Source: a virus
Taxonomy: Duplodnaviria > Caudoviricetes
Strand: one strand, 5' to 3'
IMG/VR virus record: IMGVR_UViG_3300021387_001666
Location: 1-64,000 of that record
DNA: 64,000 bases
Shown here: one piece after another, positions 12,809 to 54,516 of the stretch
Position numbering within the stretch: position 1 is the stretch's first letter
Layout of the letters: every line of letters starts with the position of its first letter
Translations under genes and position numbers: made by a program
The notes under the pieces: generated by a model
What the model saw: only the letters and a program-made list of their open reading frames with translations
Databases searched by the model: none
Told to the model about the DNA's origin: nothing

Positions 12809-13166
12809 TGTACATAATAATTATGTACAGTGTACAGAATATGTACAGAATAAATATTGTATTCTAATATATAGGTTGGTTTATTATGATGGATAAAAAT
12901 AAAAAAAGAAAAAGATGCTATACACACCTTCTTCTCTGTTTAGTAGGAACATTCGGATTCGAACCGAAGACCTCTTCAATGTGACTGAAGCGCTCTAAAC
13001 CAGCTGAGCTATGCTCCTATCTGTTGCTCCCGTTGCCTTCCTGGTGAACCCGTTGGGATTCAAACCCAGAGGAAGAGAAAGATGTGTATGTGTTTAATAC
13101 CTAAATAGTTAGGTGGGAGGCTTAGTGATTACTGTATTGAGAGTGTACATAATATGTAAAGAATAA
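12809..13166. mobile_element. Putative attP: arm-type repeats flanking a tRNA-3'-end core
   Basis: TGTACA(T/G)AAT repeats at 12809, 12820 (inverted), 12831, 12842, 13144, 13155; core 13042-13068 reads TGGGTTTGAATCCCAACGGGTTCACCA on minus strand. Confidence 0.8.
12944..13018 (-). tRNA. tRNA-Val(CAC)
   Basis: Acceptor AGGAGCA/TGTTCCT, anticodon stem CTTCA/TGAAG with loop GTCACAT, T arm TTCGG-TTCGAAT-CCGAA. Confidence 0.9.
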
Positions 13167-38802: not shown

Positions 38803-40182
38803 ATGCAAAATTATAAAAGGGGTCAATATGACTTTGTTGTAGATTCAAATTTCACTCCATTTACCATGCAGGAGATGCTTGCACCTCTTAGCATGTATAA
38901 AGATGCTTATGAGAAGAGTGAAGAGGCCTATACTGACCTCACTGATAAGGCTGACCAGTTTAAGTACTTATCAGAGACTCTTCCTGAGGGCAGTCAGGCA
39001 AGGAAAATATATGAAGGCTATTCCAATGAGCTTAATGCACAAGCCCAAGACTTAGCCCAGAATGGTCTTAACATGGGTAACAGGAGAGCCTTGACCAATT
39101 TGAAAAGAAGATACCAAGGAGAAATAGGAAGGCTTGTAAGTGCTGATGCTGCCATGCGAGAGGAAAGGAAGCTTCGTAGAACTATGAATGCCAAGGACTC
39201 CAGTATGCTCTATGCTATGGATAATTTGAGTATAGATGATTTTATGGATGGAAATACTCCTAACCTCTATAACATCAGTGGTACAGAACTCTACACTAGA
39301 GGAGCAGCTGCTGGTAAGGCTGCATCATCAAGAGTGTATCAGGCAGGTGATGAAGGTTCTACACTTGGCGGCTACTATAGAAAGTGGGTAGAAAGGAATG
39401 GATACTCCAAAGAGAGTATGGATGCTTTCAGAGCAAATGCAGCTACTATACCAGAGCTTCAGCAAGCAGCTGATGCTATTCTTGCAGAGAGAGGAGTAAC
39501 TGAAAATCTGACAGGCAACAACCTTGAAAGAGCAAGGCAGTCTGTACTCAATGGTATCATTGATGGTGCAGTCTATCAGGAAAGTATCAAACCAGTGAGA
39601 GATGAGGGTAGAATGAGTGCAGCACAAGCAGCTAGTAATGCTTTAGGCTGGGCTAATCATAATGAGAGTGTGAGGATGCATAATCTGCAACTGAAAATGT
39701 CAGGCTATGATGAAAATGGTGTCTATCATCCTGAGAATGACCAGACCCTAAAGAAAGCACAAGCTGTTGCAGCAGCCAAAGGAAGTTCTGGTGGCAGTAG
39801 AGGAGGTAGCACCATGAAGGATACTCAAACCTCTGGCAGGGTAAGACTCACATGGAATGGTAATAATCCTAATGATACCAATGGTGATGCAGATGATGAT
39901 TACACTGTAGAAGCAGTAGCCAATGATAACACTGAACATCCTGGAGTTCTTTATAGTTATGACAGGCTTCCTACCTATGTAAAGAAAGCTATTGCTCCAT
40001 TGGTAGGTGATGGTAAACAGCATCTGTATGATTATTATTTCAAGCCATACGAAGGAGGATTCTTCGATGATAGTGAAGCAAGTGTAGAGCTTGTGCCTAG
40101 AAAGATTATCACCCAGAATAGAAATGGTTCAACCTCTGATGGAGGTAGTGATGATGGAGGTTTAAATGATATTCCAGAATAA
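38803..40182 (+). CDS. Virion cargo/ejection protein 2
   Basis: F.PFTMQEM.AP N-terminus, helical; synteny. Confidence 0.7.
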   Translation: MQNYKRGQYDFVVDSNFTPFTMQEMLAPLSMYKDAYEKSEEAYTDLTDKADQFKYLSETLPEGSQARKIYEGYSNELNAQAQDLAQNGLNMGNRRALTNLKRRYQGEIGRLVSADAAMREERKLRRTMNAKDSSMLYAMDNLSIDDFMDGNTPNLYNISGTELYTRGAAAGKAASSRVYQAGDEGSTLGGYYRKWVERNGYSKESMDAFRANAATIPELQQAADAILAERGVTENLTGNNLERARQSVLNGIIDGAVYQESIKPVRDEGRMSAAQAASNALGWANHNESVRMHNLQLKMSGYDENGVYHPENDQTLKKAQAVAAAKGSSGGSRGGSTMKDTQTSGRVRLTWNGNNPNDTNGDADDDYTVEAVANDNTEHPGVLYSYDRLPTYVKKAIAPLVGDGKQHLYDYYFKPYEGGFFDDSEASVELVPRKIITQNRNGSTSDGGSDDGGLNDIPE

Positions 40183-43100: not shown

Positions 43101-46100
43101 GGAGAGAATGCCTTCACTGAGGAAGAGATGAACAATATGCTGGCTCAGTATTATGCTGCTAATCCTGGAGTGATACAGAGTGACTATCAAAACCAATTGG
43201 CTCTATATCAGATTAGTCAGAATGCCCAGAAGTTACAGGAGGCATCAGAGGCTTATGATAAGGCAGAAGAGCAGATTACCAAAATAGAAAGGAACCTTGG
43301 TAAGAGACTTGATCCTGCTGTAAGGGCTAAGATGAAGATGAATCAGGCTCTTGATGGCCATTGGAGAGAAAGAGTCAAGACCATGCAAAGTGAAATAGAT
43401 GATGCTTCAGACATTACAGGTGAGGTCAGTGAGGAAAATCTTATTCCTTCCGTTGGTGGCAGGAAGAATGCAGAGGCCCTTGTTACTGTATATGACAAGC
43501 AGATTGCAGAGCTTCAGAAGGAGATAGGAGAACAGCAGAAGCAGACACAGGAACTCAAGAATAAACTGGATGAAGCGAGAAGGAATAGGGAAACTGCTAA
43601 AACCAGTGATGAGGAGTATGCTACCCAGAAGATTTTAGAGGATGCTCAGTCAAAATATGATGATGCTGTGCAGCAGGAGAAGTATCTGTCTGACTTGATG
43701 TCTCTGACTTCAGAAAAGCAAAATAAAACTATACAGGCTCTTAAGAATCAGCAGACAGATGAAAGAGGAAAGTATATAGACAAAGTTCTGACTGCTGATG
43801 AGATATTTACCTTAGATCCTGTGACCAGAGCAAAGATGCTTAATCCTGAGAATAGAAATCTCTATAGTGATGCCCAGCAGAGGGAAATCTCCAAGTTGGA
43901 GCAGAGGCTACTGATGAGGGATGGTGATGCCTTGAGCAAAGTGCAGGATATTGCAAAACTGGCTCAGAGAATTGCCACTAATGAAGATGCCTATAGCAGA
44001 CTGGCACAAAACCCAGATGCTGCTGCTGTAGCCTTGGAGAGTCAGAGAGCACAAGCTGCTGATACTGCCTATAAACTGATGAATCAGAGAAATGCTGAGA
44101 CTATAGCAGATTTTGTGAATCAGTTTGAGGAAGGTATGAAAGGACATAATGAAGTTTCTCAGGATACTAAGAATGAATTTGTATTCAGGACACTTAGGAA
44201 GTTCAGTCCTACCTTGTTAGATATTGTAGAGGAAGATAACATGTTGCCTTGGTACCAGCAACAGGTACAGGATGCAAAAGAATGGGGCAAGGCTGTAGCA
44301 GACATTGATGCAGTAATAAACAATACTGAAGAAAGTATAGCATGGAAGAATAATGTCAGTCAGGCTATTGCTGGTGTGGTGGAGAATGCTATCAACAGAG
44401 ATGGTATTTTGACAAATTTGGAGAAAGCCATTGATGATGTGCAGAACCCTCAAGTAGCTCAGGATTTTGAGAAAGTGCTAAGTGGCCTGGAACAGTTGGG
44501 CTATCAGAGAGATGCTACTATCATTGAGAATAGGAAGCAGAGGAAACAGCGTGAGGAAGCAGAGGCTCAGAGGAAGAAAGATGCAGAGGAAGATGCTAAA
44601 ATAGCTGCTGCTGAAGCACAGGCTGCTGCACAAGAGGCTGCTAATGCTCAACAGGCACAGGTAGTAAATGCTGACGGCAGTAATCTTCAGAGTCCTTGGG
44701 AAGTTGCTCCTATAGACCAAAGTGAGGGTACTGCCGAACAAAGGGGAGAGTTGTCTGAGACTATTGATTTATCAGAAGAAACCCCTTCTCATAATGAGCT
44801 GGAAATAGAAGTTCCAACATTAGAAGGAGGTACTAGAAAGATTAATGCAGAAAAAATTAATTACTCGGATTTAAAGAAGGGAGATGCTGTATGGTATAGC
44901 GGTCCTGAGACACCTGCTCCCATTAATAGGGCAATAGTTGATGCAGTCGATAACAAAGATGTGTATTCATCAGAGGGCCTAATTCCTAAAAATAGAATCT
45001 ATTATAGGGAAGGTAATTCTCAAGTCAAAAGTAATAAAGAGGTAACTCCTGTCGTTACTAATAGTGTGGAAGAACAATTGGTTATTGACAATGGAGACAG
45101 TGTACAAGGCAAATCTGCTACTATTGATGAACAAATGAGTGAGACTGGTGATGGTAAGGAAGTACATAGCTCCGATGTAAACATAGACTATGCTGCTCAG
45201 AATGGTACTGGTGAACATGTAATTGAGACCAGTGCTACCTCATTGAGTGGCAATGCTATGTCTGAATGGAAACCAGGACCTCTTAAGAGTGATGGTAAAT
45301 TAGAGCATAAGCATGGTGAAAGACCAGATGATTCCATGAGTAAATATTATGCTTGGATTGAGACTGCTGGTATTAAGCTTCAGAATATCATTGATCAAGA
45401 ATTAGGCCAGATACTCAGACAGAATTCTCATGCCAAGGTAAAGTTTATGGTGGTAAGACCTGAGAGCAATGCCACTAATGATGGGGATATGAAAACCCAT
45501 TTAATGTTGGTATTGGACTATGACAACAAGATAAACAAAGGTATTACCCATATCCATAATGAAGGGAATGGTGGGGTTATTGAGAGTCAGGGTAAGCAGT
45601 ATCTGGTAATTGGTACTGCTGGTTATGGGAGCAGGAATGCTGATAAACAGGTTCTGTATGATACACTATTTAGTAATAATCCAAAGAGTCCTAATGGCTA
45701 TGGACTAGTGAAAAGAGGACTTGGAGAGTTCTGGAAAAATAATCCTTCAGAGAGATTTTATGTACATCCTATCTTGGAAACTGAGGTTGTACCTATGTCA
45801 TTGATTCCTGGTTACATAGTGAAACAACTGGAAAGTGACAGTAATCCTGAGTTTAGAAGTGTTAGGGAGTTATTGGCTGACCCTATAAGAAATCCCCTTG
45901 GATTGGAAATGAATGATCTTGGCTTTGGTATTCAGGAATTGACTAAGTTCATGGTGGTTGGTGCAAGTCTTGATAGGGTAATGGTTCCAAGGAATGTGGA
46001 TAGGAATGCTGGTAGTGCCTTTGTATTAATTCCTGCTAGTAATGGTAAAATGGTTCCAAGTTACTTGAAGCCTTTGTTCTACAATGAGATGAATGATGGG

Positions 46101-47351
46101 GCTTTGAAGAACAGGGTGATTGATTTGCTAAATGAAGTTACTGCTCCTGATTATGTTGCAAGACTTCAGGCTGTAGAGAATTTGAGTAGGATATTTCATT
46201 TTGACAAAGAAGGTAATACTATTCTTTTAATGAAGAGCAAGCCTGTATTGTCATTAGTCAGGGATGGTAAGCCTTTCAAGACCTTTACATTGGACAGTAA
46301 CTTTGACAGGCAGGTATTTATAGAGGCATTTAGTGAAATGAATCCAAGAGTAAATATCACTAAGTCTGTACTTCAGAGTAATGTATTGTTACAGCAGTAT
46401 GATGAAGCAGGAGCCTTGCAGACAGATATTGCTCAACTTGCTACTGCTGGCAGTTCCTATAGTATCTATGGATTGGATGCTCAGGGTAAGATGCTTCAGC
46501 CTGAGACTGTGAATAATGATATTCCAAGGACAGGCAGGAATTCTGACTTTAGGAATGGTGACAGGACTCAGGTGGTATTTAAGCATCAGTACTATAACTA
46601 TGATGTTAATGGGGGAAGATATTATTTGAATGGTATTTCTGTGATGGATGAAATTCTGGTAAGACACTTGGATTATAATAGAAGGATTATTGAAACTGGT
46701 CTGTCTCCTATAGAAAGTAATGGTGTGTGGAGTACTTATATTTTAGGTAACAAAGAGCATCCTGAGGCTGTAAGGGTGCATAGGAATACTAAGGAGGTTC
46801 AGGAGATTCCTGATGCAGAAGCTATACAGATTATAGAGCGTGTGGAGAAGGAACAGCAAGACAAGGAGAGAGCAGAAGCTGCAAGAAAGGCTATGGAGCC
46901 TAAGAAAGCAGAAGATGTTGAACTTGGTATGGAAGAACCAGGTTTAGTGGTGGATGATGAGACTGGAGAATTGGTTACTCCTGATGAACTCAGGCAAAGA
47001 CAGACTGAAAGGAATGCCCAGCTTGAGGAAAAAGAGAAGAAAGAGGGAGAGGGAGAAACCTCTGCTGAACAACTAAGTAATCAGTCTGACAAACTTCACA
47101 GGAGTGGAGCAGAACTTAGTAATGCTGTATCTGCTGCTACTCAGAACTTTACTGATTTGACTAAGAGTAAAGTATTCAAGCCATTTATGAAAAGGTTCAG
47201 GAGTATTATTCAACAGAAGTGGCCAGATGCTCCAAGTAAGGTAGTAGAATTGGAGAGATTCCTAAGAGACAAGAATATTGAGGTAGATGTCATTGGTACA
47301 TCAGAAACAGATATTCAAGTCTGGCTTGATACTATAAAGAATTGTAGGTAA
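40200..47351 (+). CDS. Giant (2383 aa) virion cargo/ejection protein
   Basis: Long helical protein with Gly/Ala-rich segments after muzzle and cargo genes; no RNAP motif seen. Confidence 0.7.
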   Translation: MPIITPQGLKGLQGIGSLSKADYDAFVKKNDALISRHAYDPSYISNLYSNKQFIDRYGVEQFKAIPDFDMRNSLLREDVVNEEWDNMYGDMDDQWKQKYGMMSTDAKQKLLESDWLTPTEFDSEWKQKSDALRGITRDKNGGVSIDPLKNIGGLSQAMAVSEETGEAALQRARERNNRTLDHIYNDDVDNYAKALGNEVNTVYSQSDITGMSDEQVKQAFVQAITPGSYEGNMGVPEYASHYGNGSDEEITSEMEDFSVDDMRQVLAKKRAYEQYMSPDMAATALNNDAKRYIKEHQGSFKRFGLFAKDVGIASLSYTADKINGIYNLGLMAADAIGDKPVVWVDDTGNVVDANTIVTEQNGRFVYGQGTDGKLHPVHQMEIDRTTLHNMGKNTDGSNDESILNPLYWTRAEQFGTLDEDLQRKYEKLGSSPYKVVYDPNEDSDLMYESFKMMSFGLADGAAQLMPFGVGMLGKTLSTASKVGKIGRGLGQALNWTGRHLTAQTKTGQLIQGLAGAEGIAYAYERGAFQETLAQNLANAEEAALNRSKQEIYDQYQNDEQYKAQMDALIDAKAASMKAEYIAALGEGGQQRIVDNAKLDEMLRARAQQTVMGEAVQRRLDEIKGSDEYVALQEEAINSAGDAATATFLPEAIKYGLVNTVGFRKWMYSNPTGLRNKVAAGLQGLREITTPAGRQRLVTEGSKFLTRGQKWKQFGKTASSQIWGGAWTNGTDDMMVDAAERINEDSFARYLHAFENGEAMADTYGFADGLYSYWKGLNNSLGQETTWNAATVGGLGSVLSFTPNMANIAHLATKEGREAYRNNFKREALRNEDGTVKRDEQGNIQYKEVGLGENWRDRANYFIQNGVLNTYYGAKQNERDLQQHADYVNNLLDDYDDFKVIEELINSDIALDNAETVGDQKTMRFVKAINAANALNRLAQNENDPTTLSSVVQNAKSFIQRAAQMQMEGENAFTEEEMNNMLAQYYAANPGVIQSDYQNQLALYQISQNAQKLQEASEAYDKAEEQITKIERNLGKRLDPAVRAKMKMNQALDGHWRERVKTMQSEIDDASDITGEVSEENLIPSVGGRKNAEALVTVYDKQIAELQKEIGEQQKQTQELKNKLDEARRNRETAKTSDEEYATQKILEDAQSKYDDAVQQEKYLSDLMSLTSEKQNKTIQALKNQQTDERGKYIDKVLTADEIFTLDPVTRAKMLNPENRNLYSDAQQREISKLEQRLLMRDGDALSKVQDIAKLAQRIATNEDAYSRLAQNPDAAAVALESQRAQAADTAYKLMNQRNAETIADFVNQFEEGMKGHNEVSQDTKNEFVFRTLRKFSPTLLDIVEEDNMLPWYQQQVQDAKEWGKAVADIDAVINNTEESIAWKNNVSQAIAGVVENAINRDGILTNLEKAIDDVQNPQVAQDFEKVLSGLEQLGYQRDATIIENRKQRKQREEAEAQRKKDAEEDAKIAAAEAQAAAQEAANAQQAQVVNADGSNLQSPWEVAPIDQSEGTAEQRGELSETIDLSEETPSHNELEIEVPTLEGGTRKINAEKINYSDLKKGDAVWYSGPETPAPINRAIVDAVDNKDVYSSEGLIPKNRIYYREGNSQVKSNKEVTPVVTNSVEEQLVIDNGDSVQGKSATIDEQMSETGDGKEVHSSDVNIDYAAQNGTGEHVIETSATSLSGNAMSEWKPGPLKSDGKLEHKHGERPDDSMSKYYAWIETAGIKLQNIIDQELGQILRQNSHAKVKFMVVRPESNATNDGDMKTHLMLVLDYDNKINKGITHIHNEGNGGVIESQGKQYLVIGTAGYGSRNADKQVLYDTLFSNNPKSPNGYGLVKRGLGEFWKNNPSERFYVHPILETEVVPMSLIPGYIVKQLESDSNPEFRSVRELLADPIRNPLGLEMNDLGFGIQELTKFMVVGASLDRVMVPRNVDRNAGSAFVLIPASNGKMVPSYLKPLFYNEMNDGALKNRVIDLLNEVTAPDYVARLQAVENLSRIFHFDKEGNTILLMKSKPVLSLVRDGKPFKTFTLDSNFDRQVFIEAFSEMNPRVNITKSVLQSNVLLQQYDEAGALQTDIAQLATAGSSYSIYGLDAQGKMLQPETVNNDIPRTGRNSDFRNGDRTQVVFKHQYYNYDVNGGRYYLNGISVMDEILVRHLDYNRRIIETGLSPIESNGVWSTYILGNKEHPEAVRVHRNTKEVQEIPDAEAIQIIERVEKEQQDKERAEAARKAMEPKKAEDVELGMEEPGLVVDDETGELVTPDELRQRQTERNAQLEEKEKKEGEGETSAEQLSNQSDKLHRSGAELSNAVSAATQNFTDLTKSKVFKPFMKRFRSIIQQKWPDAPSKVVELERFLRDKNIEVDVIGTSETDIQVWLDTIKNCR

Positions 47352-47353
47352 AG

Positions 47354-47386
47354 AAAAGAGGAAGTCATTTGGCTTCCTCTTTTTTA
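47354..47386. terminator. Bidirectional intrinsic terminator
   Basis: AAAAGAGGAAGTC-ATTT-GGCTTCCTCTTTTT between convergent genes. Confidence 0.85.
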
Positions 47387-47399
47387 TTTTTATAGGATT

Positions 47400-47612
47400 T
47401 TACTTATTCTTAGTAATACTATCTGCTTGTTCCCAAGTTAAATCTCCTTGAACCCCCTTCATCATTTCCTCCTGGGATAGATTAAATTCCTCCATAAATA
47501 CAGTATCAACAGGGACATCTTCTACTGTTTCACTCATGTTGTCTTCTGTAATATAATAAGATAGGATGGTGATTATCAAAACTCCTATTATTACAAAACT
47601 TTTCTTTTTCAT
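47400..47612 (-). CDS. Small membrane-anchored acidic protein (70 aa)
   Basis: MKKKSFVIIGVLIITILSYY; start reassigned to ATG 47612. Confidence 0.7.
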   Translation of the reverse strand: MKKKSFVIIGVLIITILSYYITEDNMSETVEDVPVDTVFMEEFNLSQEEMMKGVQGDLTWEQADSITKNK

Positions 47613-47619
47613 ATAATTA

Positions 47620-49911
47620 TTATTTTGGTCCTTTACCATTCTTATACCAATATTTTCCTGATGTTTCCCACCAGTCCTTAACAGCAGGGATTTGCCATGC
47701 TGTTTTACCAGCAGAATTAACATCTTTAGTATGCTTGGAATTTCCAGTATTATAATCTCCTTGGGCATAATACCTGAAAGCATCTAGTAAAGGAGGGGTA
47801 TTTCTATCTACATTGGCATTATTATATTGAAAGTTTCTCACTAAGTTTTCAGCAGGAATATAACCAAAAGCTGTAAAATAATTAGTATTACCTAATGCTC
47901 TATTATATATAGCATTTCCATCCTTATAGTTAAAATAAGGCATAGCCCCATTATGTGTTTCCTGAGTAGATAGTCCAAGCATCTCATTCATATTAATTTG
48001 TCTGGGAGCACCATATCTACTTCTTTTCTTGCGAGGATGTTCAGACAGTTGAGGGTTTCTATTATAAATACCTGCATATTTAGCCAGACTATCCAAGACA
48101 TTGGTTGAAGTAGTACTACCATTAATAAGAATAGATTTCTCAGGGATAAAAGGAATATCAAAGACAGGATTAGATGCTCCATTCTGAGCAGCATTATCTA
48201 CTATCTTTAGTTTCATCTGCCTTTCCAACCTCTCACTATCATTCTTTGTCTTTGAGGTATTTGGTCTTTGCCTCTTTGGAACCAGTTTCAATTCTTGTTT
48301 GTTTGGATAAACAGCTTTAATTACTTCAGCAGGCTTTCCTCTGTAAGTATATTGTTTTGATTTTTTCTCTGGTTCAGAAGAGAATAAACCTTTTAGCCAT
48401 TCTAAGAAACCACCATCTTCATATGTATTAGTCATAGCCATATCTACCATTGGCTCTTGAAGGGATCCTCCAAGTCCATGCTTCCAGTGTCTGCTATTCA
48501 GTGCAAAGGTAGCCATCTTCTTTTGAGCAGGAGTACCATGCTCCTTAAACCATGTGGCAGAATGACCTGTCCTCTCCTTCAGAGCGGTAAACTTTCCTCT
48601 ATTCTCTGGCTTGATATGGATTTTACCTCCTGAATCATACAGACTCATCATTTGGGCCACCTCTTTATAGTGCTCTCCAAAATACTTTGCATCATCCTCA
48701 TTATCAAATTTTATGGATTGCATATAGCTTCTCTGATCATTCTCAGGAGACCACACATTGTCTATAAATGCAAGGCCTCTGCCAGTATCTTGTATTTGAG
48801 GAGTTACCAGATTTTCATAAGACCCCACATATACATTGCCTCTTTTAGGTTCTCCAATACCTTTGTCATATTCATATTCCCCAGGCCATGTATAGCTTCT
48901 GGTGTCATAGTTAGTCATCCTCCTGGCAGTAGGATTGCCAAAATTGGCACTAATAGCCAGCTTTGACTTCATCATTCCAGTCATTGCAGGATTGGTATCT
49001 CCACCCTCAGCAAACTCATTATATTTGTCTTTGATTTCTTGAAGATTGGTAATACCGTTACTAACAGCTACCTTTATCATAGCAGCTTTCTCATTCATGG
49101 AAAGATTCTCCCATGCGTTTTTAGGTTGATACAAATAACCTCCTTCAGACATCTGTTTGATTGGTATATTGACTATAGGTTTACTAATTTTGAGTGCATC
49201 AGGTTGTTCAGTATGAGATGGGGCACTAACATTAAAGTTAGGTTTATAATCATCAGAATTTAGATTATATTTAGAGAAATATTGTTGCTTCCATTCCATT
49301 CGTTTCTGTGGAGAACCGATATATCTGAATGCAGTAGGAGTCCCAAGAGCATCTGATAAACTACTTAGTCTCTCATTTTTCTTCATTGTTGGGATAGTAT
49401 CTCCTTTATAAACTATATATGGAACACTATTTCCATTACTGTAGCTAAAAGTAGGCTCCCCTTTAAATGTTCTACCTGTCATAAGTACACTATGATGAGG
49501 TCCAAGTCTTTCGTCAGAAAATTGAACTAAATCTCCTTCTGCAACACTGTCTATTGGGATTACCTCAAATCCAAATTTATCAGGATTTCTTCTAAATGTT
49601 TTATTTCCTGAGACTTTAGCTCCCCTATCATTAAATTGACTAGTAGCAGTATATATACATGTTTCAGGATCAGCTGTTCCAAAGTATTTAATCCTTTCCT
49701 CATCTGACATTCCTATAATGGCAGCAGCAATGCTCCAAGGTGCTCTGCTTGGTATTATGGGGACATTAGGTGCAGTTTGTTGTAAAATATGAGAAGCTGC
49801 TGTACTTCTACTTTTAATAGCTTGCTCCTCTATATAACTTTCTAAAGATGGTATTGTGTAATTACCTTTAGGGGTTACTATTATCTCTCTTGTCAGGTAT
49901 TTCTTTGGCAT
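47620..49911 (-). CDS. Modular polyprotein: NlpC/P60-like N-domain, xxGG-separated modules, SLT/lysozyme-like C-domain
   Basis: ETCIYTAT...GDLVQF..GPHHSVL (Cys/His); IHIKPENRGKFT..FALNSRHWKH module; LSTQETHNG...DYNTG. Confidence 0.65.
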   Translation of the reverse strand: MPKKYLTREIIVTPKGNYTIPSLESYIEEQAIKSRSTAASHILQQTAPNVPIIPSRAPWSIAAAIIGMSDEERIKYFGTADPETCIYTATSQFNDRGAKVSGNKTFRRNPDKFGFEVIPIDSVAEGDLVQFSDERLGPHHSVLMTGRTFKGEPTFSYSNGNSVPYIVYKGDTIPTMKKNERLSSLSDALGTPTAFRYIGSPQKRMEWKQQYFSKYNLNSDDYKPNFNVSAPSHTEQPDALKISKPIVNIPIKQMSEGGYLYQPKNAWENLSMNEKAAMIKVAVSNGITNLQEIKDKYNEFAEGGDTNPAMTGMMKSKLAISANFGNPTARRMTNYDTRSYTWPGEYEYDKGIGEPKRGNVYVGSYENLVTPQIQDTGRGLAFIDNVWSPENDQRSYMQSIKFDNEDDAKYFGEHYKEVAQMMSLYDSGGKIHIKPENRGKFTALKERTGHSATWFKEHGTPAQKKMATFALNSRHWKHGLGGSLQEPMVDMAMTNTYEDGGFLEWLKGLFSSEPEKKSKQYTYRGKPAEVIKAVYPNKQELKLVPKRQRPNTSKTKNDSERLERQMKLKIVDNAAQNGASNPVFDIPFIPEKSILINGSTTSTNVLDSLAKYAGIYNRNPQLSEHPRKKRSRYGAPRQINMNEMLGLSTQETHNGAMPYFNYKDGNAIYNRALGNTNYFTAFGYIPAENLVRNFQYNNANVDRNTPPLLDAFRYYAQGDYNTGNSKHTKDVNSAGKTAWQIPAVKDWWETSGKYWYKNGKGPK

Positions 49912-49913
49912 AT

Positions 49914-50168
49914 TTATCTAATTAACGGTTCTATTATGCTACAGTAAACACAGGGAGTATAGATAAGCCTGTCTCTTTCAGACGCTATACAGCTATCTTT
50001 CTGTTCTGAAGTCCAGCCATTGTTTTCTGCTTTTCTTTCAGCTAAATCAACAGCAATAAGTAATTGGGTTTTATTTTTGGCCTTTTGCTGTTCTGTACAA
50101 GAATGGTTTTCTACAACTGCTAATCCAAGCAGTAGTACTCCTATTATTATATATAGTATTTTTTTCAT
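49914..50168 (-). CDS. Small membrane-anchored/exported protein
   Basis: MKKILYIIIGVLLLGLAVV; promoter TAAATTTG 50187-50194. Confidence 0.7.
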   Translation of the reverse strand: MKKILYIIIGVLLLGLAVVENHSCTEQQKAKNKTQLLIAVDLAERKAENNGWTSEQKDSCIASERDRLIYTPCVYCSIIEPLIR

Positions 50169-50272
50169 ACTTAATTATATTTGCTGCAAATTTAAGAATT
50201 ATTTCTATATTGACAAAGGATATAAGAAGTTTTCTTATCTAACAGACTTTTTATTATCAAAAAGACACAATT

Positions 50273-50737
50273 AGTCCCTTATGGACTTTCTTGGCTCATC
50301 ATCTTGAAACTTCCACTGCGCGGTCAGTTCAGCTAACTCGTAGCATAATTTAACTGTAATCTCCCTATTACCCCATTTACCCTCTACCTCTTTTCCATCA
50401 TAGCTTGGCGGGGAACAGCTTTATATTCAAGAAATTTGTGGCCTATCGGAGTTTGAGCTATCCTGTTATCTCGGAGATTATGTTTCCTCTTCTGAGGTAT
50501 CTCCTACAATCCGACTTCTGACCCTTACCATCTGCTTCCTGTTTCTCAATGGCGTAGGGTGTACATGAGACTATGACTCTCAAGGGCCTAAATATCTGGT
50601 AATAAAAACCAGAGAAAGAAAAATTGCAACCCTATAGTGACTCACAGGTTGCAATTATCTCCATCTCTGGTATATATTTGAGGAGCTCCCTCCGTCAAAT
50701 CCAACTATGTCCTTGCAATCAGAGTCACTTGATTACT
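50273..50737 (-). ncRNA. Putative structured RNA / leader with kissing-loop pair
   Basis: Promoter TATCTTTG 50742-50749; hairpins 50715-50736 and 50609-50670 with complementary loops; more helices downstream; no ORF. Confidence 0.5.
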
Positions 50738-50948
50738 GATGCAAAGATACACATATTTTTATAATAACCAAAATTTTAGCAGTTAATATTTATTAAATAG
50801 GTACGGGTACATTATTATATGTATTTCAGTTAACTCTTCTATACAGAATAGATAAGGATTGTCCTAAGCTATAGGGTAAGAAGCTGTATTATATTTATCT
50901 TTGCATCAAAGAAAATATATATGTTTAGAATTAATAAAAAGATATAAT

Positions 50949-51281
50949 ATGGCATCAGAAGTTGTAATTACACTGGTAGGATTATTCTGTACGACAGTAT
51001 CCAGTATAGTCACATTTATCCTCACAAGGAGGAAGTATAATACTGAGGTAGATTCTCAGCAGATAAAGAACATGGATGAATCTTTCGAGATTTACAAGAA
51101 GGTGATGAATGAGTCCTTGAATGCTCAGAATGAAAAGATTGCACTTCTTCAGAGAGAGAATGACAATCTTAGACAGCAGGTTAATAGCTTACAAGAACAG
51201 GTTATTAGTCTTGTAGGTATGCTTGGTGGTTCTTCTAAAGCAGTAAAAGGTCCAGAACCTATTGGTATGAAAGACATGTAA
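50949..51281 (+). CDS. Holin-like single-TM coiled-coil protein
   Basis: N-terminal TM, RRKY, coiled coil; directly upstream of amidase; promoter 50896-50903. Confidence 0.6.
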   Translation: MASEVVITLVGLFCTTVSSIVTFILTRRKYNTEVDSQQIKNMDESFEIYKKVMNESLNAQNEKIALLQRENDNLRQQVNSLQEQVISLVGMLGGSSKAVKGPEPIGMKDM

Positions 51282-51282
51282 T

Positions 51283-51930
51283 ATGAATAAACAGCAAGCT
51301 ATTATCATATTAGGTACAGCCCATAGGATGAGAGAGCCTGGAAAGGAATCTCCTGACAAGAGACTGAAGGAATGTATATATTCCAGAGAGCTGTGTAAAG
51401 AGATAGCTGATAAGCTAAGAGCATACGGCTGTAAGGTAGAGATAGACTATGAACCTCTTGACTTACCAAGAAGTATGCAGTCTCCCAACTATAAGCAGGA
51501 GCTGAATAATGAGCTGGCTATGAGGGTTAACTATGTCAATGAAATATGCAGACAGAAAGGTGCTAAGAATGTATTGTATGTTTCTATTCATGTAGATGCT
51601 TCAGGCAGTGATGGTCAGTGGCATAATCCTAATGGTTGGAGTGTAAGAGTCAGTCTTAATGCCTCAGAGAACAGCAAAAAGCTGGCAGGATGTCTGTTTG
51701 ACACAGCTAAGCAGAAAGGTCTTAAAGTAAGACAGCCTTCTATGTCTCAGAAATACTGGCCTCAGAATCTATTTGTATTGAGGAACACAGAATGTCCCGC
51801 AGTGTTGACAGAAAATTTATTTCAGGATAACAAAGCTGATGTAGATTACCTGCTGTCAGATGTTGGCAGGCATGTAATAGCAAGACTTCATGTAGAGGGA
51901 ATATTGAAATATGTTAGTGATGCGAATTAA
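51283..51930 (+). CDS. N-acetylmuramoyl-L-alanine amidase (Amidase_3) endolysin
   Basis: Zn ligands GTAH, KE, VSIH; PAVLTEN. Confidence 0.9.
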   Translation: MNKQQAIIILGTAHRMREPGKESPDKRLKECIYSRELCKEIADKLRAYGCKVEIDYEPLDLPRSMQSPNYKQELNNELAMRVNYVNEICRQKGAKNVLYVSIHVDASGSDGQWHNPNGWSVRVSLNASENSKKLAGCLFDTAKQKGLKVRQPSMSQKYWPQNLFVLRNTECPAVLTENLFQDNKADVDYLLSDVGRHVIARLHVEGILKYVSDAN

Positions 51931-52110
51931 TGATTGTGGGAATTTCTTTTCATTTGAAGTTGAATTAGTTAAATGGTTGAGGAGAGGGAGGCTGTGAAGT
52001 TTCCCTCTTTTATTTACTGTGTTAAGACAGATTAAGCATTATCTTTAGGTCTTAGGCTATCCCTTAAATCCTTTATATCTTTGCCTACAAAAAGAGTAAA
52101 GATTGTTTTT

Positions 52111-54516
52111 ATGGCATATAGTGCAATAGGAGGTTTTCCTCCTCAACAGTTAAGCTTCAGCAGGAAGAATAAGGCATGGAGGGTAAAATGTGTGGACTTT
52201 GCAGATGACCACAGCATTATGAGGAACCATGCTGCAGGAAAGTCATGGTATAACATGATGATAAACTATGACCTCATCAATGGAAAGATACACATGTCTG
52301 ACATTAAGGCTGTAGTAAATCCCTTTGGACTTGATGCATCTTTTATTCCAGATAATATTCAGCATTATTCAGTTATTAACCCAAAGCTGAATGTGCTTAG
52401 GGGTGAGGAAAGTGAAAGACTGTTTGATCCAAGACTGGTAGTTACTAATCCTACAGCCATCAGTGAGATGGAAGAGGAAAAGAATAAACAGGTGAATGCA
52501 AGGCTCCAGCAGCTTATTATGGATACCTCCCAGAGTGAAGAGGAGTTTCAGCAGCAACTTCAAAAGCTGGATGACTACTTTAACTATGAGTATCAGGACA
52601 AAAGGGAAATCAGAGGTAATCTGTTTCTCAGTCACTACTCAAGAGAGCTGGAATTTTCCCAGAAGTTCAATAAAGGCTTTGTGGATGCCTACACTGTAGG
52701 AGAGGAGATTTATCAGTGTGATATTGTAGGAGGAGAACCAACTCTTGAAAAGATAAGACCTATGGAGCTTGGTATTATCAGAAGTGGTGACTCTGACAGG
52801 ATAGAAGATGCAGATATGCTTATCCTTCAGAGATATAAGAGTCCAGGCTGGGTAATAGATGCTTATTGGGATCAGTTATCCAAGAAAGACATCGAGAGGA
52901 TAGAGGAGGGTAGTAATGGTGAATACAGCGGTTGGAAGGATTCTATGGATAACATAGATGCAAGACCAGGCAATCCATTAGTACCTGTACCTTGTGACTG
53001 GCAGGCAGGAGACAGCCATATCAATGCCAGTGAGCTCTTTAATGATGATAACTATACCAATATGACTCCCTATGACATTAATGGTAATGTCAGAGTATTG
53101 ACAGTCTATTGGAAGTCAAGAAGAAAAATCAAGAAAGTAAAAAGCTATAATCCTGAGACAGGTGAAGAAGAGTTCAACTTCTATCCAGAGACCTATCATT
53201 GTGATCCCATGAAGGGAGAGGAAGAGCAGATATTCTGGATTAATGAGGCATGGGAGGGCACTAAGATAGCAGAAGACATCTATGTCAACATGAGGCCCAG
53301 ACCTATACAATATAATAGGTTAAGCAATCCTTCTGTATGCCATTTTGGAATTGTAGGAAGTATCTATTCTATTAATGGTGATGAGCCCTATTCACTGGTA
53401 GATGCAGTAAAGCCTGATGCATACTTCTATGATATTGTCAGGGATAAGCTGATTAAGCTTATTTCCAAGAATATGGGCAAGTTGGCAAGAATGGACTTTG
53501 CCAAGATACCCAAAGGATGGGATATAGATAAATGGCTATATTTTGCCACTGTCAATGGTATAGCTGTTGAGGATAGCTTCAAGGAAGGAACAATAGGAGC
53601 CTCCACAGGTAAACTGGCAGCAGGACTTAACAATGCTTCCAATGGCGTTATAGATGTATCTTTAGGAAATGAGATACAATTCCACCTCAACCTACTTGAG
53701 TGGATAGCTAATAATATAGGTGAACTGGCTGGTATCTCAAGACAGAGAGAAGGACAGATAAGTAACAGAGAAACTGTAGGTGGTGTTGAAAGGGCAACCC
53801 TTCAGTCAAGCCATATTACCAAATGGCTATTCTTTATTCATGACAGTGTAAAGAAGAGAGCTATCGAATGTTTCCTTGAGACAGCTAAGATAGCCTATAA
53901 AGGCAGAAAAATTAAGTTTAACTACCTACAGCCTGATGGTAGCAGGAAACTTGTTGAGATAGATGGTGATGAGTTTGCAGAATGTGACTATGGTCTTGTA
54001 GTAGATACTGGTAATGATGTGCAGGAGCTTATGCAGAACCTTGGACAGCTTGCACAGGCAGGTCTTCAGAATGACAAGATGAACTTCTCTACCCTGATTA
54101 AGATTTATCTCACCAAGAGTCCTACAGAGAAGCAGAGACTTATTGAAAGATATGAGCAGAAAGTGGAGGAACAACAGAGGCAAGCTCAGCAGCAACAGCA
54201 GCAGCAGTTTGAGCAGCAGTTACAGCAGCAGGCTCAGCTTGAACAGGCTAAGATGGATAGAGAATATCAGATGCATCAGGAGAAGCTCCAGAATAACATC
54301 CTTACTTCTGAAATTGCATCTCAGGCAGAGGCTCAAAGATTTGCCATGATGAATCATGATAATGATGAAGCCAATGACATTGAGAGAGAGAAGATAGCTG
54401 AGAATGCAAGACAATTTGATGCTAAATTGAAACTGGATACTAAGAAGCAGGCTGATGATGCAAGACTCAAGGAGAAACAAATTCAAGTGACCAAGCAGAA
54501 AGCCATTAATAAATAG
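52111..54516 (+). CDS. Portal protein (crAss-like)
   Basis: FPPQQL..K...W, PKLNVLRGEE, VYWKSRRKI, WINEAWEGTKI, GISRQREG.I..ETVGGVER; promoter 52076-52083. Confidence 0.9.
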   Translation: MAYSAIGGFPPQQLSFSRKNKAWRVKCVDFADDHSIMRNHAAGKSWYNMMINYDLINGKIHMSDIKAVVNPFGLDASFIPDNIQHYSVINPKLNVLRGEESERLFDPRLVVTNPTAISEMEEEKNKQVNARLQQLIMDTSQSEEEFQQQLQKLDDYFNYEYQDKREIRGNLFLSHYSRELEFSQKFNKGFVDAYTVGEEIYQCDIVGGEPTLEKIRPMELGIIRSGDSDRIEDADMLILQRYKSPGWVIDAYWDQLSKKDIERIEEGSNGEYSGWKDSMDNIDARPGNPLVPVPCDWQAGDSHINASELFNDDNYTNMTPYDINGNVRVLTVYWKSRRKIKKVKSYNPETGEEEFNFYPETYHCDPMKGEEEQIFWINEAWEGTKIAEDIYVNMRPRPIQYNRLSNPSVCHFGIVGSIYSINGDEPYSLVDAVKPDAYFYDIVRDKLIKLISKNMGKLARMDFAKIPKGWDIDKWLYFATVNGIAVEDSFKEGTIGASTGKLAAGLNNASNGVIDVSLGNEIQFHLNLLEWIANNIGELAGISRQREGQISNRETVGGVERATLQSSHITKWLFFIHDSVKKRAIECFLETAKIAYKGRKIKFNYLQPDGSRKLVEIDGDEFAECDYGLVVDTGNDVQELMQNLGQLAQAGLQNDKMNFSTLIKIYLTKSPTEKQRLIERYEQKVEEQQRQAQQQQQQQFEQQLQQQAQLEQAKMDREYQMHQEKLQNNILTSEIASQAEAQRFAMMNHDNDEANDIEREKIAENARQFDAKLKLDTKKQADDARLKEKQIQVTKQKAINK

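What the first reader, a model, noticed from the sequence alone, without database searches (positions are those of the whole stretch)
47400..50194. Antisense cassette: modular cell-wall hydrolase polyprotein flanked by two small membrane proteins (effector/immunity-like)
Seen: promoter, 84-aa membrane-anchored gene, 763-aa polyprotein, 70-aa membrane-anchored gene, terminator, all opposite to surrounding structural genes. The terminal domains look like NlpC/P60 (TC..GD..HH) and SLT/lysozyme (QET...YNTG), appear more AT-rich than the central modules, and each abuts a small exported protein with similar MKK..IIGVL leaders. Inference: a polymorphic, virion-loaded peptidoglycan hydrolase with cognate periplasmic inhibitors, as in T6SS Tae/Tai pairs, giving self-protection or kin-specific superinfection exclusion.
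Basis: inference. Interest (0 to 1): 0.8.

Follow-up and report, generated by a model that had tools for sequence, protein, structure and literature searches.

The report
Mosaic phage cell-wall enzyme cassette
A crAss-like phage from an animal gut carries a self-contained three-gene unit; its large mosaic protein joins a likely cell-wall-cutting head to modules also found in virion cargo proteins, and its heads appear to move between phages together with small neighbouring membrane-protein genes.

Summary
The anatomy is real: a host-type promoter motif, an 84-aa membrane-anchored gene, a 763-aa gene, a 70-aa membrane-anchored gene and a two-way terminator. All lie on the minus strand, between the giant virion-polymerase-like gene and a divergent holin-like/amidase pair.

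The 763-aa protein is a five-module mosaic.
- **Head A (1-250):** NlpC/P60-like, with Cys85 and His140 aligning to the catalytic pair.
- **Modules B, C, D:** shuffled among hundreds of metagenomic phage proteins. D is present in all four crassvirus C1 cargo proteins tested, including crAss001 gp45. C and D also sit next to the portal-binding domain in other cargo proteins.
- **Head E (541-763):** a family with no Pfam model.

The 84-aa gene accompanies head A in 3 of 3 loci where A is N-terminal, and is absent in 3 of 3 loci where the protein starts at B. In two contigs that are 98-99% identical, the C-terminal half and the downstream gene were replaced together.

Virion loading and an inhibitor ("immunity") role remain inference, and a lysis-module reading is a serious rival. 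I class this as a new variant of the polyvalent/polymorphic phage protein kind.

The parts
50187..50217 (-). Host-type (Bacteroidota-like) promoter motif, TTTG-N19-TAAATTTG, ending 19 nt before the 84-aa start codon
   Evidence: 7 matches in the window against 2.6 expected, and 3 of 100 shuffles reach 7. The consensus is recalled from the literature. Function was not tested.
49914..50168 (-). 84-aa bitopic membrane protein: an N-terminal anchor and a roughly 60-aa C-terminal part with 4 Cys. It is the partner gene of head A.
   Evidence: Homologues sit directly upstream of head-A proteins in L092 and L093 (alignment A9; BLASTP E 3e-10 and 1e-3). No informative family match.
47620..49911 (-). 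763-aa mosaic protein with module order A-B-C-D-linker-E. No signal peptide or transmembrane span.
49162..49911 (-). Head A (aa 1-250): NlpC/P60-like papain-fold cysteine peptidase or amidase, with Cys85 and His140 invariant
   Evidence: C85 invariant and H140 at 90% or more in A3; both invariant in A1 and A7; 7 of 10 homologues hit Amidase_6 or NLPC_P60, one of them at the cut-off; hhalign probability 51.6%, E 1.5e-4, with the catalytic Cys and His aligned; controls gave 0.1%.
48994..49152 (-). Module B (aa 254-306): a widespread module of about 45 aa that is usually the N-terminus of relatives
   Evidence: present in 180 of the 259 retrieved proteins
48646..48993 (-). Module C (aa 307-422): conserved, function unknown; it lies next to the CARG1 portal-binding domain in some cargo proteins
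   Evidence: the D-C-CARG1, C-D-CARG1 and C-CARG1 orders occur in 6 proteins
48454..48645 (-). Module D (aa 423-486): basic module of about 60 aa, shared with crassvirus cargo protein C1
   Evidence: found at crAss001 gp45 370-430, cr85_1 208-269, DAC15 (two copies) and bajarodcaudo 329-394. It is absent from the window's own C1.
47623..48291 (-). Head E (aa 541-763): a family with no Pfam model and an invariant Glu651 in a QET motif. Candidate muralytic head; fold unverified.
   Evidence: It is fused to CARG1 in P0253 and lies inside an 873-aa protein in L007.
47400..47612 (-). 70-aa bitopic membrane protein with an acidic C-terminal part (79 aa if it starts at 47639). Narrowly distributed.
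   Evidence: 6 clusters at 87-97% identity
47352..47385 (.). Two-way intrinsic terminator hairpin shared with the convergent polymerase-like gene
   Evidence: A 34-nt stretch at 88% identity follows the equivalent cassette in L093.
49128..50164 (-). Apparently optional unit: the 84-aa ORF (after its ATG) plus head A
   Evidence: tables 7 and 8: loose ends at 49127 and 50165 share 11 letters in runs from separate studies. This is a hint only, because the tool did not list it as a joint. Proteins that start at B are seen.
50901..51930 (+). Conserved divergent neighbours: a transmembrane plus coiled-coil holin- or spanin-like gene (likely start 50949) and an Amidase_3 endolysin (51283-51930)
   Evidence: The same divergent arrangement occurs in L090, L091, L093 and L098.

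Best explanation
This is a self-contained accessory operon (host-type promoter to terminator) of a crAss-like phage from an animal gut. It encodes a member of a large, recombining family of polyvalent or polymorphic phage proteins.

Shown:
- The 763-aa protein is a mosaic: NlpC/P60-like head A, adaptor modules B, C and D, and a second head E.
- Modules C, D and E occur in other phages directly beside the portal-binding CARG1 domain of crassvirus cargo protein C1.
- The window's own C1 has neither D nor any lysozyme domain.
- Head A comes and goes together with the upstream 84-aa membrane-protein gene.
- In relatives, the C-terminal half is exchanged together with the downstream gene.

Inferred:
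- The protein is made late, alongside the structural, cargo and lysis genes.
- It is carried in the virion as cargo and expelled at infection, where its heads cut the peptidoglycan. Head A would cut peptide stems or act as an amidase. Head E would cut a bond not yet identified.
- The two small proteins have an N-in, C-out topology and expose short domains in the periplasm. They act as head-specific partners, most plausibly inhibitors.
- Such inhibitors would protect the infected cell from its own or sibling phages' enzyme, as T4 Spackle does against the gp5 lysozyme.
For: MOSAIC NATURE. There are 841 relatives and 2409 representatives. Local BLAST shows that separate segments are shared with different proteins. 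Among the 259 retrieved proteins there are 38 different module orders, and none repeats A-B-C-D-E.

HEAD A. C85 is invariant and H140 is at 90% or more. 7 of 10 homologues hit Amidase_6 or NLPC_P60 over the GDL..H motif. hhalign against a Prevotella NlpC/P60 profile gives 51.6%, E 1.5e-4, and pairs C85 and H140 with the catalytic Cys and His; controls give 0.1%.

CARGO LINK.
- A profile containing module D hits PDB 7qog chain M, gp45.
- The D model hits 4 of 4 tested C1 proteins but not the window's C1.
- gp45 is a virion protein by mass spectrometry and cryo-EM (PMC10172136, passages read).
- D-C-CARG1, C-D-CARG1, C-CARG1 and E-CARG1 orders occur in 7 proteins.
- The C1 proteins of cr85_1 and bajarodcaudo carry Phage_lysozyme2 between D and CARG1.
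- The window's genome has no PF01464, PF18013 or PF00959 match.
- In crAss001, the minus-strand genes after gp47 include the cargo proteins gp49 and gp50.

OTHER HEADS ON THE SAME SCAFFOLD. Relatives carry Phage_lysozyme, Phage_lysozyme2 or Glucosaminidase domains (15, 8 and 6 of the 120 listed), a TseH-like domain and an ART-PolyVal domain.

CO-MOBILITY.
- Homologues of the 84-aa protein lie directly upstream of head A in L092 and L093.
- They are absent where the protein starts at B: L090, L091 and L098.
- L090 and L091 are 98-99% identical except for 1.8-1.9 kb that covers everything after module D plus most of the downstream ORF.
- Loose ends in public runs fit a form of this very locus that lacks the 84-aa gene and head A.

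LATE EXPRESSION. Transcription of late genes by the host polymerase in crassviruses is stated in PMC10136315 (passages read).

PRECEDENT. An inhibitor precedent exists in PMC7677548 (abstract seen in the listing).
Against: - There is no direct evidence that the protein is in virions. It lacks the CARG1 portal-binding domain.
- The function of module D is unknown, and D lies in a part of gp45 that is not resolved in the structure.
- The gene sits divergently next to holin-like and endolysin genes in 5 of 5 loci with enough flank. This fits a lysis role equally well.
- The 84-aa gene is upstream of its head, which is the holin-endolysin order rather than the usual effector-immunity order.
- Head E showed no similarity to SLT, GH73, GH24, Phage_lysozyme2 or NlpC/P60 profiles (all under 1%).
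- Homologues of the 70-aa protein are missing from the two distant head-E loci.
- The downstream ORFs exchanged between L090 and L091 have no membrane span, and the heads beside them are unidentified.
- L005 carries head A without an 84-aa homologue.
- No family model matches either small protein.
Confidence: 0.4

Rival explanations
1. Lysis-module reading. The 763-aa protein is an auxiliary multi-domain endolysin or lysis effector, co-regulated with the divergent holin-like gene and the amidase. The 84-aa protein is a single-span holin- or antiholin-like partner encoded just upstream of its muralytic head. The 70-aa protein is another lysis-timing or spanin-like membrane component.
For: - The same divergent arrangement with a transmembrane plus coiled-coil gene, followed by Amidase_3 or DUF5675, occurs in the window, L090, L091, L093 and L098. 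That is 5 of 5 loci with enough upstream flank.
- The lysis pair and the B-C-D region are shared between the window and L090 (75% and 89% nucleotide identity).
- A small membrane gene directly upstream of a muralytic domain, with a 2-nt spacer, is the classical holin-endolysin order.
- A holin and its lysin moving together would also explain the coupling between the 84-aa gene and head A.
Against: - Neither small protein matched a PHROG or Pfam family annotated as holin or spanin.
- Relatives on the same scaffold carry non-lytic heads: ART-PolyVal and an HExxH motif in L098.
- Modules C, D and E are fused to the portal-binding domain of virion cargo proteins.
- L090, L091 and L098 keep the lysis pair without any 84-aa gene.
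- From recall: endolysins of phages infecting Gram-negative bacteria are usually small and single-domain.
Confidence: 0.25
2. The small genes are not inhibitors. They are head-specific folding, membrane-targeting or assembly partners (as tail-fibre chaperones travel with fibre tips), or simply hitch-hiking small membrane 'moron' genes on the same recombining segments.
For: - Joint exchange of a C-terminal region and its downstream gene is also the signature of fibre-tip and chaperone modules (recall).
- The ORFs exchanged between L090 and L091 are not membrane or exported proteins.
- The 70-aa protein is almost an orphan (6 clusters).
- The low GC of heads and small genes alike shows only that they were imported together.
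Against: The 84-aa family keeps conserved periplasmic-side motifs across 31-35% identity while remaining glued to head A in three otherwise different loci. The tight 2-nt and 7-nt spacing suggests coupled synthesis.
Confidence: 0.2
3. Interbacterial polymorphic-toxin reading. Like the MuF/Bxa toxins of Bacteroidales prophages, the protein would be released, at lysis or by another route, to harm competitors. The small genes would be classical immunity genes.
For: - The scaffold is conserved while the C-terminal heads vary, and a downstream gene is exchanged along with the head.
- P0009 carries a TseH-like T6SS-effector domain.
- L090 and L091 lie beside an integrase-like gene.
- MuF/Bxa precedents have small downstream immunity ORFs (PMC11699363: abstract and sections 7-8 read).
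Against: - No MuF domain or any known trafficking domain was found.
- From recall: a muralytic toxin cannot cross the outer membrane of a Gram-negative target from outside.
- From recall: the window's phage is a crAss-like virus, and such viruses are not known to be temperate.
- The heads seen are mostly cell-wall enzymes typical of entry or exit functions.
Confidence: 0.1

Closest known systems
Polyvalent proteins of phages and conjugative elements (Iyer, Burroughs, Anand, de Souza, Aravind 2017; PMC5512222, passages read)
   Same: - It is a large phage protein that strings several unrelated modules together.
- Peptidoglycan-attacking domains are a stated theme of that class.
- The phage versions are proposed to be packaged and injected.
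- P0109, a relative on the same B/D scaffold, carries the ART-PolyVal domain plus a lysozyme.
- L098's relative has an HExxH motif, read by eye, like the metallopeptidases common in that class.
   Different: - Modules B, C, D and E are not among any Pfam-named domains.
- The phrase 'immunity protein' occurs 0 times in that paper's main text. Here, heads travel with small neighbouring genes.
- Here only cell-wall-type heads are evident.
- Supplementary domain lists could not be seen.
Crassvirus cargo protein 1 (crAss001 gp45; PDB 7qog; PMC10172136, passages read; Pfam crAss_CARG1 PF25725)
   Same: It shares module D. In other members, modules C and E lie immediately before the portal-binding domain. 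Some C1 proteins carry a lysozyme domain in that slot.
   Different: The 763-aa protein has no CARG1 domain and shows no BLAST similarity to the window's own C1 (best E 0.12). It is encoded on the opposite strand beside the lysis genes and carries an extra NlpC/P60-like head.
MuF polymorphic toxins of temperate phages, including Bxa with Bsi/BAH (PMC5576092, listing only; PMC11699363, abstract and sections 7-8)
   Same: The proteins are phage-encoded, with a conserved virion-related N-terminal part and variable C-terminal heads. Small adjacent ORFs co-occur with their head.
   Different: There is no MuF domain. The heads here look muralytic rather than cytoplasmic toxins. One partner gene lies upstream. 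The genomic setting is next to lysis genes.
T4 tail lysozyme gp5 and its periplasmic inhibitor Spackle (PMC7677548, abstract in the listing)
   Same: This is the proposed working model: a small periplasm-exposed phage protein neutralises a virion-borne cell-wall enzyme and thereby excludes superinfecting kin.
   Different: No sequence comparison was made. From recall, the T4 genes are not adjacent. Here the pairing is genetic (adjacent and co-mobile) and untested biochemically.
T6SS amidase effector-immunity pairs (Tae/Tai, TseH/TsiH)
   Same: A papain-fold cell-wall amidase is paired with a small envelope protein. P0009 carries a TseH-like domain (PF25218, 29.3 bits against a cut-off of 27) on the same B-C-D scaffold.
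   Different: No T6SS genes or trafficking domains are present, and the element is a phage. The pairing rules of Tae/Tai are recalled, not tested.
Holin-endolysin cassettes
   Same: A small membrane-protein gene lies directly upstream of a muralytic domain, in a lysis-gene neighbourhood.
   Different: The protein is 763 aa with cargo-type modules. There is no match to a family annotated as holin. Relatives carry non-lytic heads.

Membership tests
NlpC/P60 superfamily (head A) | Catalytic Cys followed by His, in the conserved order and motifs | tested here: met
   C85 is invariant and H140 is at 90% or more in A3; both are invariant in A1 and A7. hhalign pairs them with the Cys of DCSGF and the His of GHVGI in a Prevotella NlpC/P60 profile (51.6%, E 1.5e-4).
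NlpC/P60 superfamily (head A) | Match to a family model above its curated cut-off | tested here: inconclusive
   The window's protein gave 0 families. Among 10 homologues, Amidase_6 matched 5 (one at 23.3 bits against a cut-off of 23.2) and NLPC_P60 matched 2 below the cut-off. That the two families share a clan is recalled.
NlpC/P60 superfamily (head A) | Papain-like fold | not testable with these tools
SLT / GH23 lytic transglycosylase (head E) | Match to PF01464 or profile similarity to SLT domains | tested here: not met
   - No Pfam hit in the window's protein or in 10 homologues.
- PF01464 finds nothing in the genome at E<=10.
- hhalign against 11 Prevotella SLT domains gave 0.1-0.2%, whereas the SLT versus Phage_lysozyme2 control gave 64.7%.
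Lysozyme-like fold in general (head E) | Catalytic Glu on a lysozyme-like fold | not testable with these tools
   - Glu651 (QET) is invariant in 18 sequences and kept in L007.
- The Atlas structural neighbours are GH73, SLT and GH19 clusters, but with TM of only 0.36-0.44 on a model of mean pLDDT 0.39.
- GH73, GH24 and Phage_lysozyme2 profiles all gave under 1%.
- The fold could not be predicted.
Polyvalent proteins (Iyer et al. 2017) | Several unrelated domains in one phage polypeptide, with combinatorial architectures | tested here: met
   There are 38 module orders among the 259 retrieved proteins. Relatives carry lysozyme, glucosaminidase, TseH-like and ART-PolyVal heads.
Polyvalent proteins (Iyer et al. 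2017) | Packaged in the virion and delivered with the DNA | not testable with these tools
   The support is indirect only: modules are shared with cargo protein C1.
Polymorphic toxin-immunity systems | Conserved N-terminal part with variable C-terminal heads | tested here: met
   The B-C-D region is 58-81% identical across P0005-P0010, P0018, P0028 and P0127, with unrelated C-termini. L090 and L091 diverge just after module D.
Polymorphic toxin-immunity systems | The adjacent small gene co-varies with the head | tested here: met
   - The 84-aa family is with head A in 3 of 3 loci where A is N-terminal and absent in 3 of 3 loci that start at B.
- The downstream ORF is replaced together with the head in L090 versus L091.
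- Counter-cases: L005 has head A without it, and L006 and L007 have head E without the 70-aa gene.
- The sample is small: 9 loci.
Polymorphic toxin-immunity systems | The head is toxic and is neutralised by the neighbouring protein | not tested
   This needs expression assays or complex prediction.
Crassvirus cargo protein 1 | CARG1 portal-binding domain (PF25725) | tested here: not met
   No hit in the 763-aa protein and none with a local CARG1 model. The window's true C1 is at 35782-38787.
T6SS Tae/Tai effector-immunity pairs | T6SS context or trafficking domain | tested here: not met
   The record is a 108-kb phage. No such domains appeared in Pfam, NCBIfam or PADLOC scans.
Holin | Small membrane protein matching a known holin family | tested here: inconclusive
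   One transmembrane span each. The only PHROG hits are to families of unknown function. Holins are too diverse for a blank to exclude membership.

The most novel reading that the evidence does not exclude
Bacteroidota phages, crassviruses included, would run a polymorphic virion-cargo effector system. Interchangeable enzymatic heads ride on a common B/C/D adaptor, which would be the part that threads the portal and tail. Each head would bring its own small membrane-anchored inhibitor gene. An infected cell would then be immune only to phages carrying the same heads. This amounts to head-specific superinfection exclusion and kin discrimination among phages, generalising the single T4 gp5/Spackle case into a recombining effector-immunity system.
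Probability: 0.17. Interest if true: 0.85.

Novelty: new variant of a known kind. Interest (0 to 1): 0.58.

Why it matters
How crassviruses cross the cell wall is unknown. The published virion atlas assigns no muralytic activity: 'lysozyme' and 'peptidoglycan' occur 0 times in its main text.

This locus, together with the module map, has three consequences:
- It points to a set of exchangeable cell-wall heads attached to cargo-type modules.
- It gives a concrete candidate for the entry enzyme of a phage whose own C1 lacks one.
- It shows natural swaps in which a head and a small neighbouring gene move as one unit.

If the small proteins are head-specific inhibitors, this would be a phage-level effector-immunity system with consequences for superinfection and phage competition in gut and rumen communities. 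If they are not, the family is still a large source, with no Pfam model, of enzymes active against the Bacteroidota cell wall.

Tried and rejected
**Structure route.** I substituted profile comparisons and the Atlas.

**Sequence searches of solved structures.**
- The protein alone gave nothing.
- Alignments A1-A4 gave only gp45, through module D.

**Head E.**
- Pfam on 10 homologues gave 0 relevant hits.
- A profile search with A6 found 36 proteins. None carried a Pfam domain over head E; P0253 carries CARG1 beside it.
- hhalign against SLT, GH73, GH24, a Phage_lysozyme2 seed and NlpC/P60 all gave under 1%. Forced global alignment did not align the motifs.
- The SLT versus GH73 control reached only 3.9%. 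This method therefore cannot see fold-level kinship, and the blank does not exclude a lysozyme-like fold.

**Atlas on B-C-D.** Nothing above chance level.

**NCBIfam and PADLOC.** No meaningful hits on the three proteins and on partners in relatives.

**Context look-ups.**
- The single-protein scan of viral contigs found no relative.
- A5 in genome contigs found none.
- The 763-aa protein was not found in 10 Prevotella-type genomes reached through the amidase (0 of 10).
- The INPHARED phage collection holds only module D matches: 11 records by tblastn, 0 covering 80% or more.

**Rfam.** Nothing but 3 tRNAs in the window, and no credible hit in 50100-50950.

**Sigma-70 scan.** 13 promoter-like sites against 15.7 expected, which is uninformative for this host type.

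**Public runs.**
- No RNA holder was listed, so nothing can be said on expression.
- In the 4 runs laid (all contigs), bins 49236-50082 had no cover. I use only the loose ends at 49127 and 50165 as a hint.
- A listed joint from 47388 to 49052 (24 letters on the shorter side, 3 runs) was set aside as too short to trust.

**Rejected readings.**
- 'Polyprotein cleaved at xGG'.
- That the two small proteins are paralogues.

**Papers.** Searches found no paper joining crAss-like phages with polymorphic toxins or polyvalent proteins in the sense used here. Only listings were read for those. The virion mass-spectrometry tables of PMC10172136 and the domain lists of PMC5512222, which I could not see, may bear on the cargo and polyvalent claims.

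Full report
**Setting.** The window is the first 64 kb of a 108,188-base IMG/VR virus record, estimated 93% complete. It is a crAss-like phage.
- It has a muzzle protein (PF25731, E 1e-273), cargo protein 1 at 35782-38787 (crAss_CARG1, E 3.1e-49) and cargo protein 2 at 38803-40182.
- It has a 2383-aa gene at 40200-47351, in the position of the virion polymerase subunit gp47 of crAss001, and a portal at 52081-54516 (phrog_6547, E 6e-143).
- Its endolysin's closest relatives are in rumen Prevotellaceae assemblies (68% and 64% identity).
- Public runs holding parts of the locus are labelled gut or bovine gut metagenomes.

**Observation.** All stated parts exist.
- The three minus-strand ORFs are at 49914-50168 (84 aa), 47620-49911 (763 aa) and 47400-47612 (70 aa; 79 aa from an overlapping upstream ATG). 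They are separated by 2 and 7 nt.
- A 15-pair hairpin at 47352-47385, flanked by A- and T-runs, closes both this unit and the convergent polymerase-like gene.
- A TTTG-N19-TAAATTTG motif ends 19 nt before the first ATG. The pattern occurs 7 times against 2.6 expected, and 3 of 100 shuffles reach 7. By my reading, four of the seven lie just upstream of a gene or RNA start. The consensus itself is recalled.
- The Crassvirales review states that late genes (structural, cargo, lysis) are read by the host polymerase (PMC10136315, passages). A host-type promoter therefore fits late expression.
- Both small proteins have one N-terminal hydrophobic span preceded by Lys residues. The large protein has none.
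- The GC claim holds: heads A and E and both small genes are at 0.32-0.35, modules C and D are at 0.40-0.46, and the window is at 0.39.

**Module map of the 763-aa protein.** The protein itself matches no Pfam, PHROG, NCBIfam or PADLOC family and no solved structure. It nevertheless has 841 relatives at E<=1e-3 in one database and 2409 representatives in another. Local BLAST against the retrieved proteins shows that they share separate pieces:
- A, aa 1-250
- B, aa 254-306
- C, aa 307-422
- D, aa 423-486
- E, aa 541-763

With models built from these pieces, the 259 retrieved proteins show 38 different module orders. The commonest are B-D (90), B-E (27), E alone (23), B-D-E (11), B-A-D (11) and B-C-D (10). 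None repeats A-B-C-D-E. These proteins were fished with the query, so the counts describe the sample and not nature.

**Head A.**
- Cys85 is invariant and His140 is at 90% or more in A3. Both are invariant in A1 and A7.
- Of 10 homologues scanned, 5 hit Amidase_6 (best E 7.8e-5, at the curated cut-off) and 2 hit NLPC_P60 below the cut-off. All hits fall over the GDL..H motif.
- A profile comparison with three Prevotella NlpC/P60 domains gave 51.6% probability and E 1.5e-4, and placed Cys85 and His140 on the catalytic Cys and His. The same profile against SLT or GH73 gave 0.1%.
- I accept an NlpC/P60-like enzyme at superfamily level. The fold and the bond cut are untested.

**Head E.** Every test I could run failed:
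- Pfam on the protein and on 10 homologues.
- PF01464 against the genome.
- A profile search, which found 36 proteins with no Pfam domain over head E.
- hhalign against SLT, GH73, GH24, Phage_lysozyme2 and NlpC/P60, all under 1%.

The positive control, SLT against Phage_lysozyme2, gave 64.7%. SLT against GH73 gave only 3.9%, so fold-level kinship is beyond this method. The Atlas's nearest structural clusters are glucosaminidase, SLT and GH19, but at TM 0.36-0.44 on a poor model. These are leads, not evidence. Head E is best described as a conserved family with no Pfam model, an invariant Glu and an unknown fold.

**Link to virion cargo.**
- Module D is the only part found in catalogued phages: 11 records, all at query residues 406-520.
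- A profile containing D hits crAss001 gp45 in PDB 7qog (E 4.8e-7).
- A D model finds gp45 residues 370-430, cr85_1 C1 208-269, DAC15 C1 twice and bajarodcaudo C1 329-394. That is 4 of 4 tested. It does not find the window's own C1.
- gp45 is a virion protein. Its residues 425-552 bind the portal, residues 214-245 line the tail barrel, and the stretch between, which includes D, is not resolved (PMC10172136).
- In other retrieved proteins the CARG1 domain is immediately preceded by D-C (4 proteins), C-D (1), C (1) or the end of head E (P0253).
- In L007 (a 91-kb contig), head E lies inside an 873-aa protein between 1153-aa and 905-aa ORFs. Pfam did not recognise CARG1 there.
- The C1 proteins of cr85_1 and bajarodcaudo carry Phage_lysozyme2 next to D and CARG1. 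The window's C1 has none.
- The whole genome has no PF01464, PF18013 or PF00959 match.
- In crAss001, the minus-strand genes after gp47 include the cargo proteins gp49 and gp50. Opposite orientation therefore does not argue against a virion protein.

Three of the five modules thus belong to the cargo-protein repertoire. This is the basis, and the only basis, for inferring virion delivery.

**Other heads on the same scaffold.**
- Among the 120 listed relatives, 15 carry Phage_lysozyme, 8 carry Phage_lysozyme2, 6 carry Glucosaminidase and 4 carry CARG1.
- P0009 (B-C-D 78% identical) ends in a TseH-like T6SS-effector domain. P0109 joins a lysozyme to ART-PolyVal.
- L098's 945-aa relative has an HExxH motif, read by eye.

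This places the family among the polyvalent proteins of Iyer et al. (PMC5512222).

**Do heads and small genes travel together?** Nine loci with context could be obtained.

(a) Head A at the N-terminus occurs in the window, L092 and L093.
- In all 3, a small membrane-protein gene homologous to the 84-aa protein lies directly upstream (31-35% identity, shared AVDLA..K..NGWT and TPC.YC motifs; BLASTP E 3e-10 and 1e-3).
- The C-terminal parts and the downstream genes differ among the three. L093 has a 70-aa lipoprotein, followed by the same terminator hairpin.

(b) The protein starts at module B in L090, L091 and L098. In 3 of 3 there is no 84-aa homologue.

(c) L005 has head A at the C-terminal end of a B-first protein and no 84-aa homologue.

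(d) L090 and L091 are 98-99% identical on both sides of a replaced stretch.
- The stretch is 1,876 nt in L090 and 1,820 nt in L091.
- It begins just after module D and ends 69 nt before the stop of the downstream ORF (158 aa against 117 aa).
- The C-terminal half and its downstream gene were therefore replaced as one piece.

(e) In contigs of four public runs from four studies, pieces fit 47351-49127 and 50165-50900.
- Contigs ending at 49127 run on with 11 letters. These are the first 11 letters of the loose end that precedes 50165 (tables 7 and 8).
- Read by hand after the shared ATG, these letters encode ..YKGFVYTP.., the N-terminus typical of B-first relatives (P0005 starts MEYKGFTYTP).
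- This fits a form of this very locus in which the 84-aa ORF and head A (49128-50164) are absent and the large gene uses the same start codon.
- The tool did not list it as a joint, so I count it as a hint.

(f) The 70-aa protein has only 6 clusters at 87-97% identity. It is absent from the two distant head-E loci, L006 and L007. Its coupling to head E is therefore shown only among near-identical relatives.

**Neighbourhood.** In the window, L090, L091, L093 and L098, the gene is divergent from a transmembrane plus coiled-coil gene followed by an Amidase_3 or DUF5675 gene. These are the 5 of 5 loci with enough upstream flank.
- Between the window and L090, the lysis pair is 75% identical in nucleotides and B-C-D is 89% identical.
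- This conserved pairing is the main argument for the lysis-module rival.

**Mechanism and odds.** The descriptive picture is well supported: a recombining polyvalent family, an NlpC/P60-like head, cargo-type adaptor modules, and co-mobile small genes.
- I rate virion delivery at about 0.55.
- I rate the small proteins being head-specific inhibitors at about 0.3.
- I rate the whole chain at 0.4, as the best single story.
- The rivals are an auxiliary lysis enzyme with holin-like partners (0.25), partner genes that are chaperones or hitch-hikers (0.2), and a released interbacterial toxin of the MuF/Bxa kind (0.1).

The working analogy for an inhibitor is T4 Spackle against the gp5 lysozyme (PMC7677548, abstract). 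The analogy for head-plus-neighbour modules is the MuF/Bxa family (PMC11699363).

**Novelty.**
- The kinds are known: polyvalent proteins, crassvirus cargo, virion-associated lysins and phage polymorphic toxins with immunity genes.
- What I could not find in print is the following: the B/C/D/E module set; its sharing between cargo protein C1 and free-standing genes next to lysis cassettes; and the joint mobility of heads with small membrane-protein genes. Searches returned listings only, and the polyvalent paper contains no 'immunity protein'.
- I classify this as a new variant of a known kind.

**Limits.** There was no structure prediction and no exact-contig look-up. Only nine context loci were available. 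All counts on the retrieved proteins are biased by how they were fished. Nothing was measured on expression or protein content.

Noticed in passing
window 50273-50780 (-): About 500 nt with no ORF lie between the cassette's promoter and the divergent lysis genes. A second TTTG..TAnnTTTG motif sits at 50742-50772(-), and a weak hairpin at 50273-50287. Rfam gives no family. Earlier notes of this scan describe a covarying kissing-loop RNA here. L090, L091 and L098 have only about 150-290 nt at this position, so the RNA is not an obligatory part of the cassette. It could still act as a leader for it.
   Followed up: partly
L090:2815-4690 versus L091:1498-3317: This is a clean natural replacement, in 98-99% identical backgrounds, of the C-terminal half of the large protein together with the downstream ORF. 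The replaced heads and both downstream proteins (158 aa and 117 aa) match no family.
   Followed up: partly
L098:12322-15159 (-): A related 123-kb crAss-like contig carries a 945-aa protein with modules B and D and, by eye, an HELLH (HExxH) motif near the C-terminus. It is again divergent from the holin-like gene and amidase, and has no small flanking genes.
   Followed up: partly
L002 (Bacteroides phage DAC15 C1, residues 191-315): Module D occurs twice in tandem in the DAC15 cargo protein C1.
   Followed up: no
P0108 (1106 aa): This cargo protein C1 relative carries an intein with a LAGLIDADG homing-endonuclease domain in its N-terminal part.
   Followed up: no
L006:4980-5808 and 6131-7300: A head-E homologue sits right after a portal gene and is split over at least two frames, which suggests a frameshift or sequencing error. 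It is followed by a 389-aa protein with a YkuD L,D-transpeptidase-like domain.
   Followed up: no
L005:5736-6197 and L093:1862-2284: DUF5675 proteins (one with a weak YkuD-like hit) sit next to head-A proteins in two unrelated loci. They are possibly the endolysin of those phages.
   Followed up: no
window 47388 / 49052: Contigs of three public runs show a joint that skips 1663 nt, from the terminator to module B. Only 24 letters lie on the shorter side, which is too short to trust.
   Followed up: no
window 47620-49911: Five x-G-G sites (residues 257, 303, 428, 481 and 500) fall at module borders, as another note of this scan also says. There is no evidence of cleavage. A papain-fold head in the same protein makes self-processing worth a test.
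   Followed up: partly
window 1147-1218, 2769-2844, 12943-13018: Three tRNA genes on the minus strand: Gln-TTG, Arg-TCT and Val-CAC.
   Followed up: no
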